This document shows positions 7,918-57,573 of a DNA stretch of 64,000 nt, piece by piece. Source of the stretch: a phage; assembly GCA_030980935.1 (NCBI GenBank), contig GCA_030980935.1_3059.1; one strand, written 5' to 3'. A model generated the notes under the pieces. It was given only the letters and a program-made list of their open reading frames with translations. It was not told the origin of the DNA and searched no databases. Position 1 is the stretch's first letter, and each line of letters opens with the position of its first letter. A program made the position numbers and the translations under genes.

Positions 7918-8574
7918 ATGGCAGCACCTAGAATATCATTTTCGCCCTCTGATATTCTATTTGGTGTTCTAGATCGCTTGTTCAAAGATAACGCTACCGG
8001 GAAAGTTCTTGCTTCCCGGGTAGCTGTCGTAATTCTTTTATTTATGATGGCGATTGTTTGGTATAGGGGAGATAGTTTCTTTGAGTACTATAAGCAATCA
8101 AAGTATGAAACATACAGTGAAATTATTGAAAAGGAAAGAAATGCACGCTTTGAATCTGTCGCCCTGGAACAACTCCAGATAGTTCATATATCATCTGAGG
8201 CAGACTTTAGTGCGGTGTATTCTTTCCGCCCTAAAAACTTAAACTATTTTGTTGATATTATAGCATACGAAGGAAAATTACCTTCAACAATAAGTGAAAA
8301 ATCACTTGGAGGATATCCTGTTGATAAAACTATGGATGAATATGCAGTCCATTTAAATGGACGTCATTATTATTCCAACTCAAAATTTGCTTTTTTACCA
8401 ACTAAAAAGCCTACTCCCGAAATAAACTACATGTACAGTTGTCCATATTTTAATTTGGACAATATCTATGCTGGAACGATAACCATGTACTGGTATAGAA
8501 ATGATCATATAAGTAATGACCGCCTTGAATCAATATGTGCTCAGGCGGCCAGAATATTAGGAAGGGCTAAATAA
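7918..8574 (+). CDS. t: Holin T
   Basis: 218 aa, N-terminal TM segment, TATAAATA late promoter at 7893-7900, strong SD AAGGAGGG. Confidence 0.85.
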   Translation: MAAPRISFSPSDILFGVLDRLFKDNATGKVLASRVAVVILLFMMAIVWYRGDSFFEYYKQSKYETYSEIIEKERNARFESVALEQLQIVHISSEADFSAVYSFRPKNLNYFVDIIAYEGKLPSTISEKSLGGYPVDKTMDEYAVHLNGRHYYSNSKFAFLPTKKPTPEINYMYSCPYFNLDNIYAGTITMYWYRNDHISNDRLESICAQAARILGRAK

Positions 8575-17070: not shown

Positions 17071-19248
17071 TTAGGCCGCAAGGGCCTTCATAGTTTTAGC
17101 GATTTGAGAAACTTCATCATCACTTAAAGAGTTGCGATAACCGATGAAGTCGGAAACAATACGGAATTTCTTGGTAAACTCAGCAACCATTTTATCACTA
17201 TTTTTTGAAGCATTATTTGACAATACATCAAAAAGATTAGTTACTGTCCAGATGTCATGACCGATGGTACCTTTTCCACCGTTGAAATATATGCCCTGTA
17301 ATGAACTAACCATATTACCAAGGCGAGTATATTCTTCAGAAACTTCATCTACACTGAAGTACTTCATCATAAAATCTAGTTCAGGATACTTAATAATTTT
17401 ATCAATATATCGTTTAGCTGAACTTGAATAACCTACATACTTATCATAATCTACAGCATCAAAAGCATCTACATATAAATCACGCAGAGTTTCAAAAATA
17501 CATTGGCACTGACCGAGTTCTTTTACCTTTTTCTGTAAAAGCGGACGAATAACATAAAATTCATTAATGCCAATAAGATTAGCCATACGAATCAAAATAT
17601 TCATAGATGGATGACAAAGTGATGTAGTACCATCCATAGAGAAAATATCAGAACGATGCATATACGCTACATAACCAGTAATTTCATCTGCTTCTGACGT
17701 AAGTGTAAATAATTCCTCTTTTTCCCAACGCCCATCTTTAATTTCAAACTTAAATGCTGTAGCAGCTTTAGGACGAGGAGCTTTACTTTTAACTACCTTT
17801 GGAATATAGCTTTTAACTAAAGCTTCAATTTCTGACAAATAATGAATGTTAACTTCATCACTTTCAAACATTGCCATAATATCAGGAAGCAAATCAATCT
17901 GCGATTCTACTTCTGGATTAATAAACAGAAGGCGTTCGTTGTGATGAATATTCAAAGTGTTATTAAATTCACTATCATCTAACGCATGTGCTAATCCACG
18001 GACAATATTAACACGATTTTTAATATTATCAATAACGATATTAATTTTTGTTGTATTAATACCAAACAGACGATAACTTGATGCAACGGCTGAAGTTTCA
18101 TGGCTTTGCTTAATGCGTTTCAGTCGAGGGTCAAGATTTACTTCATACACAACTCCTGCATTGCATAACTTACTGTCAGGTTCAAACATGCTCTGCATTT
18201 TCTTATATGACAGATTTTTAGTCGTGAATTTGACTGAATTACTAATCATATAATCTCGAGCAGAATACCCCATCTTCATCAATTCACGATATGTGTGACG
18301 AGGAGATGTAGATTCTTTAAATCGTTTTACATCTTCATTAAATGCTTTCTCACTAAGCTCTTTAACTCGTTCAATAATATTTTTACGAGTGCGATCATCT
18401 AATGAAAGAGCTTCACGTGATGGAGCAATATCAAGTGAACCCATTGGAAATTTAATGTAATTCACTTCATTGCGAATGCTTAGCCAGTTACGGTCTCTAA
18501 TAACACCATCGATAGGATAAACAATACCGCCATAGATAGCATATAATCCACCACGATCTGGCCAATATCTTTCTGGATTTACGCCATAATAATCATCAAA
18601 ATCCGGAAAATAATCAATTTCGCGGTCAAGACCATTAATGATAGCCAAATCTTTGAATGGTCGCATGATATAAGAAACTTCATAAGCAAAGTTTCTAAAG
18701 TCTTTTTCTTCAACTGGAACTACGATTTCAATACCAGTTTTATCATTTGGACCCATTTCTTTTACGAATGTAGGTTTAATTTGTGGACCATCGCCATCCA
18801 TGTAAGCTACATAACCACGAATTTCACCTTTATGATACGAAGTAATACTAAACGTATCAGTATAACTAAACGGAGATTTAGAACCTAAACCAAATCCGCC
18901 AATAAAGTCATTAGATTCAGCCTTAGATGAACTGAAGTATGAATTATACAAACCAGGAGAATTATCATCACCCTGAATATCAAAATCACTCATACCCGGA
19001 CCAAAATCTCGGCAAACAAATCGTGGATCTAAACGTCCAGGAACTTGAATGATAAATTTTTCAGGATTTCCATTGAGAGCATGGGCATCAATCATGTTGG
19101 TAATCAATTCACGAACAACTGCGCGAATCTTATTTGTATACAAATCAGATGACAGAATTTTAAATACTTTAGGATTTGCTGCGATGCTAAATGCTTTTGA
19201 TTTAGAACCATTGCCAAGAATTGTTTCTTTTTCAGTGGTGATAATCAT
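17071..19248 (-). CDS. rIIA: rIIA protein
   Basis: 725 aa as T4 rIIA; GHKL-ATPase-like N-terminus. Confidence 0.9.
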
Positions 19249-33076: not shown

Positions 33077-34416
<1,340 letters not shown>

Positions 34417-34440
34417 TATATCATCCTCAGCAATTTATTT

Positions 34441-34476
34441 TATAATACCATAACAAGCTGAGAAAGTAAACAAATT
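34441..34476 (-). promoter_or_regulatory. Early-type promoter for the 186-aa nuclease-like gene
   Basis: Minus strand GTTTAC, 18-nt spacer, TATTATA; followed by SD GAGGA. Confidence 0.45.
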
Positions 34477-34506
34477 TATGATAAATATTAATTTAAAGGA
34501 GGACAT

Positions 34507-34707
34507 ATGGTACAAAAATTAATGGCACTTGTTAATGCCATAAAAGGTAATAAAAAACGTATAGCTTTTACTATTTCTGCTATGGTAGGAATTTTACTCT
34601 GGAACTTTATTCTATCACCTATTGCAATTGCACATGGTATTAATATTCCAGTGGTTACTCTTGATACATTTGTAGATTTAGCATTTGCTTTAGTTGGGTT
34701 GATTTAA
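34507..34707 (+). CDS. Small hydrophobic peptide (66 aa), plus strand
   Basis: Strong SD AAAGGAGG 4 nt before ATG; Ala/Gly/Val/Ile/Leu-rich, 1-2 predicted TM segments; only plus-strand ORF candidate in the minus-strand block. Confidence 0.4.
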   Translation: MVQKLMALVNAIKGNKKRIAFTISAMVGILLWNFILSPIAIAHGINIPVVTLDTFVDLAFALVGLI

Positions 34708-35732
34708 ATCTTGGCATATTTAGATAGCCGCATTTTAGCCATCAACCCCTGTGCAATATTATTTTTCATATATTCCATAATTTGTTCAGGGGTTGCACCT
34801 TCCTTTCTAATCATATCATTAACATCTTTTGATTTCCAGGGAGATTTATCCCAAAACATAACCCTTTCTCCTGCATCAACTAATTTAGTCATTCGCTTAA
34901 TAGTGTCAGGATGACGAGGTTCATTATCTAAAACCCACACACGTCTATCTTTAAATGGAACAACTTCTAGGTCTAATTGACCACCCGTAATAGCTATACC
35001 ATTTTCAATAAAAAGTGAATCTATAGGTCCTTCTAGAACATATACATCACCATCTTTAACTCGTTCGACTCCATAGATTTTTGTTGCTTCAGGATAAGCT
35101 TTGATGGTGATATATTTTTGGGGAGCATCTTTCTTTAATGCACGTCCTTGAAAAGACTCAGCTTTTCCATTAGCATTATAAATTGGAATAACAAGACGAG
35201 GCTCAGGTATTTCCTTTTTATATGTTCCTGGTGCTATGCTATTAACTAATTTAGGCCATTCGGTTGTAAACCAAAGATATTTCCATTTATCCTTTGGAAT
35301 ACAGCGAGCTTTTACATATTTTATAATTGGATGGTCTTCCGCCAATTTATCTAATCTAATGCATGACGGAAGAGATTTAATTATTTTCTTCTCAGGTTGT
35401 TTAGGAAGTTCTTTAGGTTTTTCTACTGGACGACTTTTACCTTTTTCTTTTCTTATTTCAAAGATATACTCACGATATAAATCGGGTTCAAACTCCTTTA
35501 AATATATTCCGATTGGTGCATGATAGTTACAGTTATAACAATGAATATTTCCTTCATTATTATCACCATAATACCATCCACGAGCTTTATTCTGGTCGGT
35601 TTTTGAATCTCCACAAACTGGACATCTAAACCGCAATTTAAAAGTTGAACTATTATTTACTTGTGTGAATTTAGGTAGATGAGCTAATGCACGGTATGCA
35701 AACTCATTATCAATCCAAGGTATTGATGACAT
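34704..35732 (-). CDS. 61: DNA primase gp61
   Basis: 342 aa as T4 gp61; N-terminal zinc ribbon CPVCGDS...CYNCNYH. Confidence 0.9.
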   Translation of the reverse strand: MSSIPWIDNEFAYRALAHLPKFTQVNNSSTFKLRFRCPVCGDSKTDQNKARGWYYGDNNEGNIHCYNCNYHAPIGIYLKEFEPDLYREYIFEIRKEKGKSRPVEKPKELPKQPEKKIIKSLPSCIRLDKLAEDHPIIKYVKARCIPKDKWKYLWFTTEWPKLVNSIAPGTYKKEIPEPRLVIPIYNANGKAESFQGRALKKDAPQKYITIKAYPEATKIYGVERVKDGDVYVLEGPIDSLFIENGIAITGGQLDLEVVPFKDRRVWVLDNEPRHPDTIKRMTKLVDAGERVMFWDKSPWKSKDVNDMIRKEGATPEQIMEYMKNNIAQGLMAKMRLSKYAKI

Positions 35733-57285: not shown

Positions 57286-57415
57286 AAATCATGTGTTTAT
57301 GTAACTTGAGTATAATATAGCAAACTTCAAAACTATTTACATGAGTAACACGAACAGCATTACCATTAATGAGATAATACTGTCCCTTTTTAATTTCTTT
57401 ATCAACCACAACCAT
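57233..57415 (-). CDS. Hypothetical protein
   Basis: 60 aa ORF downstream of an early promoter cassette. Confidence 0.45.
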   Translation of the reverse strand: MVVVDKEIKKGQYYLINGNAVRVTHVNSFEVCYIILKLHKHMICDRAVFSSVAKEIKLHG

Positions 57416-57573
57416 ATCAATTCCTCAAAGGTAATTCATGTGTTAATAATACCACAGTTTGAGCTCGTTGTAAACAACTTTGTGAAAATTATTTTAGGGA
57501 ATGATAAGAAGGGAACGATAGCTTAGAATGGTAATATACAGAATGTAAGAAAGAAAGGCCCAGAGGGCCCGTC

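What the first reader, a model, noticed from the sequence alone, without database searches (positions are those of the whole stretch)
34494..34707. Plus-strand small membrane-peptide ORF with strong RBS, convergent with primase gene 61
Every gene from 8575 to the window end is on the minus strand except this ORF. It has a near-consensus SD (AAAGGAGG) 4 nt before the ATG and encodes 66 aa rich in Ala/Gly/Val/Ile/Leu with one or two likely TM helices (AFTISAMVGILLWNFILSPIAIAHGINIPVV). That composition is not the Asn/Lys/Ile/Phe bias expected from random AT-rich reading. Its stop overlaps the gene 61 stop on the other strand, and its 5-prime region sits back-to-back with the promoter of the nuclease-like gene. 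It could be a small membrane toxin, a holin-like or immunity peptide, or form a divergent pair with the nuclease candidate. Plus-strand transcription would be antisense to readthrough from gene 61.
Basis: seen in the sequence. Interest (0 to 1): 0.6.

Follow-up and report, generated by a model that had tools for sequence, protein, structure and literature searches.

The report
Conserved late T-even small membrane gene
The small plus-strand ORF is a genuine, strongly conserved gene of T4-type phages (called dam.1 in one T4 record but missing from the T4 reference annotation); it appears to be switched on late in infection and to make a tiny membrane protein whose job has never been tested.

Summary
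Window 34507-34707 (+) is a 66-codon ORF with the SD AAAGGAGG 4 nt upstream, and its stop overlaps the primase (gene 61) stop by 4 nt. It is a real gene. Homologues (PHROG phrog_2024, function unknown) lie at the same place in roughly 900 T-even-type phage records from at least 9 genera. Only this frame stays open, and dN/dS is 0.09-0.36 with synonymous sites saturated. T4 carries it at 97% identity: record T4T names it dam.1, but reference NC_000866.4 leaves the 310-bp dam-61 gap unannotated. A T4 late-promoter octamer (GATAAATA here; perfect TATAAATA in three lineages) lies 13-21 nt before the start codon in almost every lineage. The gene is also on the strand that only late transcripts use. 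AlphaFold, hydrophobicity and charge indicate one membrane helix, N-terminus inside, with an almost invariant W-N...P-x-A...G...P-x-V core. It is not tied to the neighbouring nuclease-like gene, which is absent from T4 and lies on the other side of dam.1 in one lineage. It matches no holin family. A few distant homologues lie among late genes of unrelated phages, once in an operon ending in a lysozyme. Function is untested; a late membrane modulator, possibly of lysis, is my best guess. Already annotated as a hypothetical ORF, so modest interest.

The parts
34480..34487 (+). T4 late-promoter-like octamer GATAAATA (consensus TATAAATA, positions -13 to -6). It differs from consensus only at -13, the least conserved position.
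   Evidence: The same motif class lies 13-21 nt before the ATG in every genus examined except two metagenomic loci, L023/L024, which have ACTAAATA. In the window, NATAAATA followed by SD-ATG within 40 nt occurs only three times, and the other two are the known late genes t and soc. The promoter definition and the tolerance at -13 come from PMC2988020 and PMC1524935.
34493..34493 (+). Predicted late transcription start, 6 nt after the octamer, giving a 5' UTR of about 14 nt. This is inferred, not measured.
   Evidence: Inference from the -13..-6 position of the octamer (PMC1524935) applied to the sequence.
34495..34502 (+). Shine-Dalgarno sequence AAAGGAGG, 4 nt before the ATG.
   Evidence: A GGAG(G)-type SD is conserved before the start codon in all lineages.
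34507..34707 (+). Coding sequence of the 66-aa protein: homologue of T4T dam.1, RB69ORF029w and RB32ORF030w, and a member of phrog_2024.
   Evidence: dN/dS is 0.09-0.36. Only this frame is open in 11 lineages, and variable sites by codon position are 7/2/14.
34561..34632 (+). Codons 19-42: the single predicted transmembrane helix. It follows the basic N-terminal segment (residues 1-18, net charge +5).
   Evidence: The AF2 model has a helix at 15-42 with mean pLDDT 83. The summed Hessa scale gives +0.4 kcal/mol for residues 19-37 against +6.5 for the C-terminal segment, and one search also gives the charge asymmetry.
34600..34656 (+). Codons 32-50: the most conserved core, W32-N33-x4-P38-x-A40-x-[A/T/S]-[H/Q]-G44-x3-P48-x-V50, at the outer end of the TM helix and in the following loop.
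   Evidence: In 110 cluster representatives the counts are W 109, N 109, P 108, A 107, G 107 and P 106.
34704..34707 (.). Four-base overlap of the convergent stop codons of this gene (+) and primase gene 61 (-).
   Evidence: The same 4-nt overlap is seen in Mosigvirus, Gaprivervirus, Dhakavirus and Marfavirus loci.
34512..34541 (-). Context only: a minus-strand terminator-like hairpin (ATGGCATTAACAAGTGCCAT followed by a T-run) lying inside the ORF. It is probably the 3' end signal of gene 61 transcripts.
   Evidence: It is present in the window and in T4 but not in other genera, so it does not explain the conservation of the ORF.

Best explanation
This is a bona fide phage gene, the T2-type allele of the ORF that record T4T calls dam.1 (PHROG family phrog_2024). 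It is transcribed only late in infection, by gp55-directed RNA polymerase, from the octamer GATAAATA at 34480-34487. It is translated from a strong SD into a protein of about 7 kDa that inserts in the inner membrane as a single-pass protein. The basic amphipathic N-terminus faces the cytoplasm, and a C-terminal tail of about 24 residues sits on the periplasmic side. The near-invariant polar and kinked core (W-N...P-x-A...G...P-x-V) lies at the outer end of the helix, which is the kind of surface small membrane proteins use to self-associate or to dock on a larger membrane partner. My best guess at the mechanism is therefore that it is a small accessory subunit that tunes a late envelope event, most plausibly the timing or execution of lysis. 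It is unlikely to be a pore-former in its own right, and it is not a partner of the neighbouring nuclease-like gene. Shown: the gene is real, it is under purifying selection, its position is conserved, and it has late-promoter and SD signals. Predicted in silico: the single TM helix and the N-in topology. Inferred only: late expression in vivo, the identity of the partner, and the link to lysis (my estimate for the lysis link is about 0.3).
For: Gene reality. The protein matches phrog_2024 over its full length (E 1.4e-31). tblastn finds 693 records for subfamily A, 117 for B and 169 for C. dN/dS is 0.09-0.36, with dS saturated between genera. Only the proposed frame is open in 11 lineages, and variable sites split 7/2/14 by codon position. 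Synteny with the primase gene holds in Tequatro-, Mosig-, Gapriver-, Dhaka-, Marfa-, Mosuguk-, Gelderland-, Kanagawa- and Jiaodavirus.

Late expression. A NATAAATA octamer plus SD is conserved while the surrounding intergenic DNA has diverged. In the window the same signature marks only the late genes t and soc and this ORF. The reviews state that all early and middle T4 transcripts have one polarity and that only late transcripts use either strand, that 18 of 50 listed T4 late promoters deviate from consensus, and that -13 is poorly conserved. In tandem-paralogue operons the promoter precedes only the first gene.

Membrane topology. AF2 gives helices at 2-11, 15-42 and 52-63 with pLDDT 83.

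Core motif.

Link to late or lysis genes. Distant phrog_2024 members lie among late genes of non-T4 phages, once as the first gene of an operon ending in a T4-lysozyme-type gene. There is a functional precedent for a 64-aa single-TMD holin modulator encoded away from the lysis cassette (PMC11657625).
Against: There is no direct transcript, ribosome-footprint or protein evidence. The published T4 multi-omics study counted only features annotated in NC_000866.4, which omits this gene. The octamer in the window and in T4 has G at -13, which is neither the consensus T nor the common A variant. The lysozyme adjacency is seen in one non-T4 lineage (L037/L038) but not in L040 or L042. The antiholin RI occurs in many phages where no family member was detected (1116 records), so lysis inhibition does not require this protein. 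No Pfam, NCBIfam, PADLOC, PDB or BFVD match gives a functional hint. The topology rests on crude scales and AF2 only, because no TMHMM or SignalP was available.
Confidence: 0.6

Rival explanations
1. It is itself a holin or pinholin-like, membrane-permeabilising small toxin that contributes directly to lysis or membrane depolarisation. This is the first reader's 'holin-like/toxin' idea, and it is also how a few database entries label homologues.
For: The protein is small, hydrophobic and late-expressed. Homologues are labelled 'Holin' in UniProt (P0025) and 'putative holin' for Klebsiella phage KP1079. One distant homologue is the first gene of an operon ending in a lysozyme gene. Polar Asn (and Asp in subfamily B) within the TM helix could line an oligomeric pore.
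Against: Only one credible TM segment is present. The C-terminus is hydrophobic with net charge 0 to -2, whereas a holin usually has a charged, basic C-terminal tail. A second Met near the start (M1...M6) exists only in Tequatrovirus. No Pfam or NCBIfam holin model matches any of 14-26 members. T-even phages already have the holin T, encoded in this window at 7918-8574. The database labels look automated, and no experiment was found in the literature.
Confidence: 0.12
2. The N-terminal 41-42 residues act as a long Sec signal peptide. Signal peptidase I cuts after the conserved P-x-A-x-[A/T/S] and releases a hydrophobic periplasmic peptide of about 24 residues, which is the active species.
For: There is a positively charged n-region, a hydrophobic core, Pro at -5, a nearly invariant Ala at -3 (107/110), and a small residue at -1 (A 56, T 42, S 9 of 110), followed by conserved [H/Q]-G. 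The C-terminal part is conserved (G44, P48, V50).
Against: The hydrophobic stretch is about 18-24 residues, which is signal-anchor length rather than the 7-15 typical of cleaved signals (established knowledge, not tested here). Thr at -1 is a poor signal-peptidase substrate. W32-N33 inside the would-be signal peptide are invariant, and the N-terminal helix is conserved within subfamilies despite saturated dS, which a disposable leader would not need. No SignalP-type predictor was available.
Confidence: 0.12
3. It is a late membrane factor for virion assembly or tail function rather than for lysis.
For: In the non-T4 lineages the family member is translationally coupled to a gene of about 180 aa with weak similarity to a 'minor tail protein' PHROG (phrog_1924, E 6.8e-8 and 5.9e-4), and it lies next to the lambda-J-type tail-tip gene. 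The predicted late timing fits morphogenesis.
Against: The tail-protein similarity is weak and has no Pfam support. In T-even phages the gene lies in the replication-gene region, not among structural genes. No structural or virion-proteome evidence was found.
Confidence: 0.1
4. The important product is the late plus-strand RNA, which acts as an antisense RNA against primase (gene 61) mRNA. On this view the ORF is incidental.
For: The stop codons of the convergent genes overlap, and no plus-strand terminator-like site occurs within 500 nt downstream in the window or in T4, so a late transcript should read antisense into gene 61. [quoted passage not shown]
Against: Protein-level purifying selection (dN/dS 0.09-0.36), a reading frame kept open across genera that share only 18-55% amino-acid identity, a conserved strong SD, and tandem protein paralogues cannot be explained by an antisense role alone. 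In some lineages another gene separates the ORF from the primase gene, or dam is the convergent partner. An antisense effect could still exist in addition.
Confidence: 0.03
5. It forms a functional pair (immunity, antitoxin or co-regulated divergent unit) with the adjacent 186-aa nuclease-like gene.
For: In this window the two are divergently arranged, with back-to-back promoters about 10 bp apart. The 186-aa protein has weak Type II restriction-enzyme similarity.
Against: The small ORF is present in essentially all Tequatrovirus records: 503 records at >=80% identity against 502 with >=95% primase identity. The 186-aa gene is in only about 146 of 504 records and is absent from T4 and from all other genera examined. 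In L036 the 187-aa gene and dam lie together on the other side of the small ORF. The predicted timing also differs: an early-type promoter against a late one.
Confidence: 0.02

Closest known systems
T4T gene dam.1 / RB69ORF029w / RB32ORF030w (PHROG phrog_2024, 'unknown function')
   Same: It is the same gene. It is 97% identical to the T4 copy, in the same position between dam (or gene 56) and gene 61, on the same strand and of the same length. It matches phrog_2024 over its full length.
   Different: Nothing differs in kind. The window carries the T2-type allele, with an extra 186-aa gene inserted upstream. The family has no assigned function, and the gene is missing from the T4 reference annotation NC_000866.4 and from MT984581.
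Salmonella phage BSPM4 ORF52 (64-aa single-TMD membrane protein that binds the holin and tunes lysis timing; PMC11657625)
   Same: It is similar in size, has a single TM segment, and is encoded away from the canonical lysis genes. It shows that such a protein can modulate a holin.
   Different: No sequence similarity was detected: none of the family tblastn searches over the whole phage collection returned Chi-like phages. The TM segment is at the extreme N-terminus in ORF52, whereas here it follows an 18-residue basic segment. It is a functional analogy only, with no experimental data for dam.1.
T4 antiholin RI (SAR-anchored periplasmic lysis-inhibition regulator)
   Same: It is a small T-even envelope protein with an N-terminal membrane segment and a periplasmic C-terminal part, and it is involved in late envelope events.
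   Different: It is not homologous: the family profile finds nothing else in the window or in 1.84 billion representative proteins. RI has a periplasmic domain of about 70 residues, against about 24 here. RI is found in more phage groups than dam.1.
Canonical holins (lambda S class I, S21 pinholin class II, T4 T class III)
   Same: They are small or single-pass late membrane proteins of phages, and some database entries call homologues 'holin'.
   Different: See the membership test. The number of TM segments, the C-terminal charge, the dual start and endolysin adjacency are not met or are inconclusive, and no holin model matches.
T4 superinfection-exclusion membrane proteins Imm and Sp
   Same: They are small T-even envelope proteins, and Sp is encoded a few genes away in the same region.
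   Different: There is no sequence similarity. Both are encoded on the early/middle strand, whereas this gene is on the strand available only to late transcription.

Membership tests
PHROG phrog_2024 (= dam.1 / RB69ORF029w family) | Significant full-length match to the family HMM | tested here: met
   E 1.4e-31, residues 2-66 against profile positions 1-65 of 65. All 14 diverse members match, and the distant non-T4 members also match at E 1e-9 to 6e-11.
PHROG phrog_2024 (= dam.1 / RB69ORF029w family) | Conserved core W-N-x4-P-x-A-x3-G-x3-P-x-V and a length of about 52-82 aa | tested here: met
   W32, N33, P38, A40, G44, P48 and V50 are all present in the window protein.
T4 late genes (gp55/gp33/gp45-dependent) | TATAAATA octamer at -13..-6 upstream of the gene | tested here: inconclusive
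   GATAAATA at 34480-34487 matches 7 of 8 positions and deviates only at -13. Orthologues have AATAAATA, CATAAATA or a perfect TATAAATA. In T4, 18 of 50 listed late promoters deviate from consensus, and -13 is the least conserved position. G at -13 is not among the variants explicitly documented in the texts I could read.
T4 late genes (gp55/gp33/gp45-dependent) | Strand polarity compatible only with late transcription (early and middle transcripts all share one polarity) | tested here: met
   The gene is on the plus strand, together with tail-fibre genes and t, and opposite to all the early and middle genes of the window. The rule is from PMC2988020.
T4 late genes (gp55/gp33/gp45-dependent) | Transcript appears after DNA replication starts and depends on genes 55, 33 and 45 | not testable with these tools
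   No expression data cover this ORF. The T4 omics study used the NC_000866.4 annotation, which lacks it.
Holins (classes I-III, pinholins) | Characteristic TMD count: three (class I), two (class II/pinholin), or one plus a large periplasmic domain (class III, T4 T) | tested here: not met
   There is one credible TM segment (Hessa sum +0.4 against +6.5 kcal/mol for the C-terminal stretch; across the family -0.9..+3.6 against +5..+11) and only about 24 residues beyond it. The scale used is crude, and no TMHMM was available.
Holins (classes I-III, pinholins) | Hydrophilic, highly charged (usually basic) C-terminal domain | tested here: not met
   The C-terminus is ...FVDLAFALVGLI, with net charge -2; the family range is 0 to -2.
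Holins (classes I-III, pinholins) | Gene adjacent to or co-transcribed with the endolysin | tested here: inconclusive
   This does not hold in T-even phages, whose lysis genes are scattered anyway. It holds in one non-T4 lineage (L037/L038, same-strand block ending in Phage_lysozyme) but not in L040 or L042.
Holins (classes I-III, pinholins) | Match to a curated holin family model | tested here: not met
   No Pfam or NCBIfam holin model matches any of 14-26 members, even at E <= 10 (Pfam) or E <= 1 (NCBIfam).
Holins (classes I-III, pinholins) | Lethal, saltatory permeabilisation of the cytoplasmic membrane | not testable with these tools
   This needs an expression experiment.
Sec signal peptide cleaved by signal peptidase I | Basic n-region, h-region of about 7-15 residues, c-region with small residues at -3/-1 and a helix breaker at -4..-6 | tested here: inconclusive
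   The n-region has net charge +5. Pro is at -5, Ala at -3 (107/110) and A/T/S at -1. But the hydrophobic stretch is about 18-24 residues and contains the invariant W-N. No SignalP was available.
Toxin-antitoxin or restriction-modification-linked small partner of the 186-aa nuclease-like gene | Consistent co-occurrence and adjacency of the two genes | tested here: not met
   The 186-aa gene is in about 146 of 504 Tequatrovirus records and is absent from T4 and other genera, while the small ORF is present throughout. In L036 the 187-aa gene plus dam lie on the other side. Neither small-ORF subfamily matches a PADLOC model.

The most novel reading that the evidence does not exclude
The dam.1/phrog_2024 proteins may be an unrecognised, widely conserved component of the late envelope programme of T-even phages. 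One possibility is a modulator that acts on holin T, or on another lysis protein, at the transmembrane level, adding a further layer to lysis-timing control. Another is a new minimal type of single-pass holin or antiholin shared between T-even phages and some siphovirus-like phages. On either reading it has been overlooked because the T4 reference annotation lacks the gene.
Probability: 0.25. Interest if true: 0.6.

Novelty: already known. Interest (0 to 1): 0.3.

Why it matters
T4 is the reference model for lytic phage biology, yet NC_000866.4 leaves this gene unannotated. Annotation-based transcriptomics, proteomics and knock-down screens therefore cannot see it. The gene is kept under purifying selection in roughly 900 sequenced T-even-type phages, including many therapeutic candidates against E. 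coli, Shigella, Klebsiella, Salmonella and Enterobacter. Carrying one or two copies of a late small membrane protein with a near-invariant core suggests a real fitness role at the cell envelope. If that role concerns lysis timing, it would add a player to one of the oldest studied phage phenotypes. In any case the practical outcome is simple: add dam.1 (17738-17938, +) to the T4 reference annotation and test a knockout.

Tried and rejected
1. Spurious ORF: rejected on conservation, dN/dS and the frame test.

2. Conservation caused by the minus-strand terminator-like hairpin inside the ORF: rejected, because the hairpin exists only in Tequatrovirus.

3. A known RNA family at the locus: none found.

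4. Pairing with the nuclease-like gene: rejected on the phyletic pattern.

5. A paralogue of another T4 membrane protein in the window (Imm, T and others): the profile finds nothing. The best sub-threshold match is an out-of-frame stretch inside gene 46.

6. Functional hints from Pfam, NCBIfam, PADLOC, PDB sequence search, and BFVD and PDB fold searches: none, only family members. The afdb50 library was unavailable.

7. Literature: nothing for RB69ORF029w or RB32ORF030w or for dam.1 in a phage context, no T4 Ribo-seq or small-ORF study, and nothing in the T4T genome paper. The Miller 2003 T4 genome review is not held, so I could not check whether the octamer at T4 17709 is in its late-promoter list.

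8. Co-distribution with the antiholin RI as a test of a role in lysis inhibition: RI is more widely distributed, so the test is uninformative or mildly negative. The RI query was recalled from memory and validated by 100% hits annotated as rI.

9. Annotated isolates carrying the distant non-T4 members: none found. Pfam on their neighbours was uninformative.

10. Structure of the 186-aa neighbour: the single-sequence AF2 model has pLDDT 43 and is unusable. The PDB sequence search was empty.

Full report
**Observation.** The window is a T2-like Tequatrovirus: region 33700-34900 is 98-99% identical to T2 and its relatives. It has an ATG start, encodes 66 aa and ends in TAA. AAAGGAGG lies at 34495-34502, 4 nt before the ATG. 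The product is very hydrophobic, with GRAVY 1.25. Its stop codon overlaps the stop codon of the convergent primase gene 61 (34704-35732, minus) by 4 nt. A minus-strand early-type promoter match at 34471-34442 sits back-to-back with its upstream region. The statement that this is the only plus-strand gene beyond 8575 holds in practice: the other long plus-strand ORFs lie antisense to real minus-strand genes or have no family support.

**Is it a gene?** Yes.
- The protein matches PHROG phrog_2024 ('unknown function') over its full length, with E 1.4e-31.
- tblastn finds it in 693 phage records, 687 of them at 80% coverage or more. Identity is 89-100% within Tequatrovirus and 42-57% in Mosigvirus and Gaprivervirus.
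- A second subfamily, B, was first seen as a tandem second copy in phage VR26. It occurs in 117 records of Gaprivervirus, Dhakavirus, Marfavirus, Mosugukvirus, Gelderlandvirus and Kanagawavirus.
- A third subfamily, C, occurs in 169 records, mostly Klebsiella Jiaodavirus.
- All 14 diverse members tested fall in phrog_2024.
- Pairwise dN/dS is 0.09-0.16 within Tequatrovirus and Mosigvirus and 0.10-0.36 between genera of one subfamily, with synonymous sites at or near saturation. One close Gaprivervirus pair gives 0.56, from only 18 substitutions.
- In 11 lineages the proposed frame has no internal stop, while each of the other five frames has 1-12 stops. Within Tequatrovirus, variable sites split 7/2/14 by codon position.
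- No known RNA family occupies the locus.
- A minus-strand terminator-like hairpin inside the ORF (34541-34522) is restricted to Tequatrovirus, so it cannot account for the conservation.

The number of records with at least 95% primase identity (502) matches the number with at least 80% identity to this protein (503), so essentially every Tequatrovirus has the gene.

**Annotation status.** Many records annotate the ORF as a hypothetical protein. T2 record MH751506 notes 'similar to RB69ORF029w; RB32030w', JB75 calls it a 'putative membrane protein', and the T4T record HM137666 names it dam.1. The T4 reference NC_000866.4, and MT984581, leave the 310-bp dam-61 gap empty. In reference coordinates the ORF is 17738-17938 (+), with the octamer at 17709-17716. 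The T4 multi-omics study quantified only NC_000866.4 features, so this gene was invisible to it. I found no paper that mentions the gene under any of its names.

**When is it expressed?**
- In every T-even-type lineage I examined, the start codon is preceded by a strong SD. In all but two metagenomic loci (L023/L024, which have ACTAAATA) an octamer of the T4 late-promoter type lies 13-21 nt upstream of the start codon.
- The octamer is GATAAATA in the window, T4 and PM2. It is AATAAATA in Mosigvirus, JS98 and L036, and CATAAATA in Gaprivervirus, ESCO47 and KP1. It is a perfect TATAAATA in Klebsiella phage EI, Enterobacter phage IME523 and L026. CGG4-1 deviates further (ATTAAATA).
- The surrounding intergenic DNA is otherwise not alignable between genera. 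The homology between the window and T4 begins right at the octamer.
- In the 64-kb window, NATAAATA occurs only 12 times on both strands. The combination with SD-ATG within 40 nt occurs three times: holin t (7893), soc (32452, minus) and this ORF. The signature therefore picks out two textbook late genes and nothing spurious.
- The T4 late-transcription review states that 32 of 50 listed late promoters match the consensus perfectly, that 9 have A at -13 and that others carry single deviations. It also states that all early and middle transcripts share one polarity, whereas late transcripts use either strand.
- A comparative study notes that -13 is poorly conserved among T4-like phages.

The ORF lies on the strand opposite to all early and middle genes of the region. 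Late, gp55-dependent transcription starting near 34493 is therefore the best-supported reading. It remains an in-silico inference, and G at -13 is not one of the explicitly documented variants.

**Gene organisation.**
- The usual arrangement is 56 (or dam) - [small ORF, plus strand] - primase, with the stops of the ORF and the primase gene overlapping by 4 nt. The overlap is 21-24 nt in PM2 and IME523, and there is no overlap in CGG4-1.
- Some genomes carry two tandem paralogues: A then B in VR26, and B then A in ESCO47 and L026. The promoter motif precedes only the first gene, and the second is 8-9 nt away or overlapping. This is a small late operon.
- Where A is intact, the B copy can decay. 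In DK-13 it has an early stop, a deletion and a frameshift, with a homing-endonuclease gene inserted beside it. Several Gapriverviruses retain only residues 25-66 of B. This suggests the paralogues are redundant.
- The synteny has exceptions. In L035 a 124-aa gene separates the ORF from the primase gene. In L036 the order is 61 - 187-aa gene - dam - [small ORF] - ... - 56.

**Relation to the nuclease-like neighbour.** The 186-aa gene (33856-34416, minus; phrog_8706) has weak but consistent Type II restriction-enzyme similarity: Pfam DpnII E 0.0099, and PADLOC REase_II E 1.3e-4. It is present in only about 146 of 504 Tequatrovirus records. It is absent from T4 and from all other genera examined. 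In L036 its 59%-identical homologue travels with dam on the other side of the small ORF. The small ORF is thus independent of it, so the 'divergent pair' idea is not supported.

**The protein.**
- With a 26-sequence alignment, AlphaFold2 gives mean pLDDT 83 and helices at 2-11, 15-42 and 52-63.
- A summed Hessa scale gives -0.9 to +3.6 kcal/mol for the first hydrophobic segment across subfamilies, and +5 to +11 for the C-terminal segment. The N-terminal segment has net charge +1 to +5 and the C-terminal tail 0 to -2.
- The most economical model is therefore a single-pass protein with the N-terminus in the cytoplasm and a tail of about 24 residues outside. These are crude predictors, and no TMHMM or SignalP was available.
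- Conservation peaks at residues 31-51. In 110 near-full-length cluster representatives the counts are W 109, N 109, P 108, A 107, G 107 and P 106. The motif is W-N-x4-P-x-A-x-[A/T/S]-[H/Q]-G-x3-P-x-V.
- The P-x-A-x-[A/T/S] element also resembles a signal-peptidase c-region, so processing to a periplasmic peptide of about 24 residues is a live alternative. Against it, the hydrophobic stretch is anchor-length, Thr is frequent at -1, and the invariant W-N and the subfamily-conserved N-terminal helix would be unnecessary in a disposable leader.

**How far does the family reach?**
- Indexed profile searches return only proteins on T-even-type contigs of about 160-175 kb.
- An exhaustive HMMER search of 1.84 billion representative proteins finds just 17 proteins at E <= 1e-3, all of 33-82 aa. 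They keep the [W/Y]-[N/D]...P.A...G...P core.
- The gene is absent downstream of the primase gene in a Serratia phage, Krischvirus, a Klebsiella phage with about 50% primase identity (possibly Slopekvirus-like), and Aeromonas Biquartavirus.
- A few distant members lie in non-T4, siphovirus-like or temperate contigs, and all of them hit phrog_2024 (E 1e-9 to 6e-11).
- In L037/L038 the family member is the first gene of a tight same-strand block [82 aa][180 aa][109 aa][161-aa T4-lysozyme-type protein]. That block lies next to a 91-aa TM-plus-coiled-coil protein and a lambda-J-type tail-tip gene.
- L040 has [J][94-aa TM-coiled-coil][Endonuclease VII][41 aa][family member][179 aa][105 aa].
- L042 has [94-aa TM-coiled-coil][Endonuclease VII][family member].

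So outside T-even phages the gene again sits among late genes, and once in an operon with an endolysin-like gene. That adjacency is not conserved, no annotated isolates exist, and Pfam adds nothing for the neighbours.

**Function.**
- No database gives a function.
- The 'Holin' and 'putative holin' labels on a few homologues appear to be automated.
- The holin criteria I could test are not met: TM count, charged C-terminus, a conserved dual start and a match to a holin model.
- The antiholin RI is found in 1116 records, including phage groups without a detectable dam.1 homologue. Lysis inhibition as such does not depend on this protein.
- There is a functional precedent in BSPM4 ORF52, a 64-aa single-TMD protein encoded away from the lysis cassette that binds and restrains the holin (PMC11657625). 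It is only an analogy.

I therefore commit to the following. It is a late-expressed, single-pass inner-membrane microprotein that works through its conserved outer-leaflet/juxtamembrane core by binding itself or a membrane partner. Modulation of lysis or another late envelope event is the most plausible role, at about 0.3. The alternatives are a pore-former (about 0.12), a processed periplasmic peptide (about 0.12), an assembly-related factor (about 0.1), an antisense-only function (about 0.03) and a partner of the nuclease-like gene (about 0.02).

**Novelty and interest.** The ORF is already annotated as a hypothetical protein in hundreds of records, is named dam.1 in T4T and has its own PHROG family, so as a feature it is already known. 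This analysis adds five things:
- a conserved late promoter;
- three subfamilies, with tandem, apparently redundant paralogues;
- a topology model and a core motif;
- independence from the nuclease-like gene;
- rare relatives in unrelated phages.

It also makes the practical point that the T4 reference annotation omits the gene. This would not greatly surprise a specialist, but the gene is cheap to test and could reveal a new envelope factor in the best-studied lytic phage. Interest is 0.3.

Noticed in passing
window 33856..34416 (-) with dam at 33077..33856 (-); L036:760-2105: The 186-aa gene directly upstream of dam (its stop overlaps the dam start) has weak but consistent Type II restriction-endonuclease similarity: Pfam DpnII E 0.0099, RE_BanI 0.011, and PADLOC REase_II E 1.3e-4. 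It contains a candidate D...E-x-K motif (FDIV...EIK). DpnII cuts GATC, which is the Dam site. The gene is in about 146 of 504 Tequatrovirus records and is absent from T4. In L036 a 59%-identical homologue is again directly upstream of dam, but the pair lies on the other side of dam.1. The two genes therefore seem to move as a cassette, possibly a phage-borne GATC restriction-modification-like module.
   Followed up: partly
T4 reference NC_000866.4 17626-17934 (locus L022); T4T HM137666 17724-17924 (locus L027): The T4 reference annotation, and MT984581, leave this conserved gene unannotated, while T4T names it dam.1. Omics studies that count only NC_000866.4 features (for example PMC9697503) cannot report it.
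   Followed up: yes
L005:1495-1901 (VR26); L025:3001-3394; L026:3001-3414; L033:1295-1700 (DK-13): Some genomes carry two tandem paralogues of the small gene, in either order (A-B or B-A), behind a single late-promoter motif. In DK-13 the second copy is a pseudogene with a homing-endonuclease gene inserted next to the primase gene. [quoted passage not shown]
   Followed up: partly
window 34512..34541 (-): A terminator-like hairpin with a T-run lies on the minus strand inside the dam.1 coding region, about 165 nt downstream of the gene 61 stop. It is probably the gene 61 transcript terminator. It is present in T4 and in the window but not in other genera.
   Followed up: partly
L037:5643-5918 (-), L040:3260-3544, L042:2772-3056 and the neighbouring Endonuclease_7 genes: In three non-T4 lineages the family member lies within 0.5-1.4 kb of a 91-94-aa protein with an N-terminal TM segment and a coiled coil, and of an Endonuclease VII gene. 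This is a recurring trio of unknown meaning. The TM-coiled-coil protein could itself be a lysis protein.
   Followed up: no
window 57341..57523 (+): The C-terminal 27 residues of this 61-codon plus-strand ORF match a 28-residue PHROG profile (phrog_13445, E 5.5e-21). It lies in what looks like an intergenic promoter region of the otherwise minus-strand block. It could be a real micro-ORF or a recurrently mis-called one.
   Followed up: no
window 21968 (+): A perfect TATAAATA lies on the plus strand within the early-gene region downstream of gene 39, antisense to minus-strand genes. It may be a late antisense promoter or a chance match.
   Followed up: no
L018:1501-1701 (Klebsiella phage EI), L020:1501-1725 (Salmonella phage CGG4-1), P0051, P0066: Homologues of this 66-aa membrane protein are mis-annotated in public records as 'DNA packaging ATPase' or 'dCTP pyrophosphatase'. 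These look like shifted or propagated labels.
   Followed up: no
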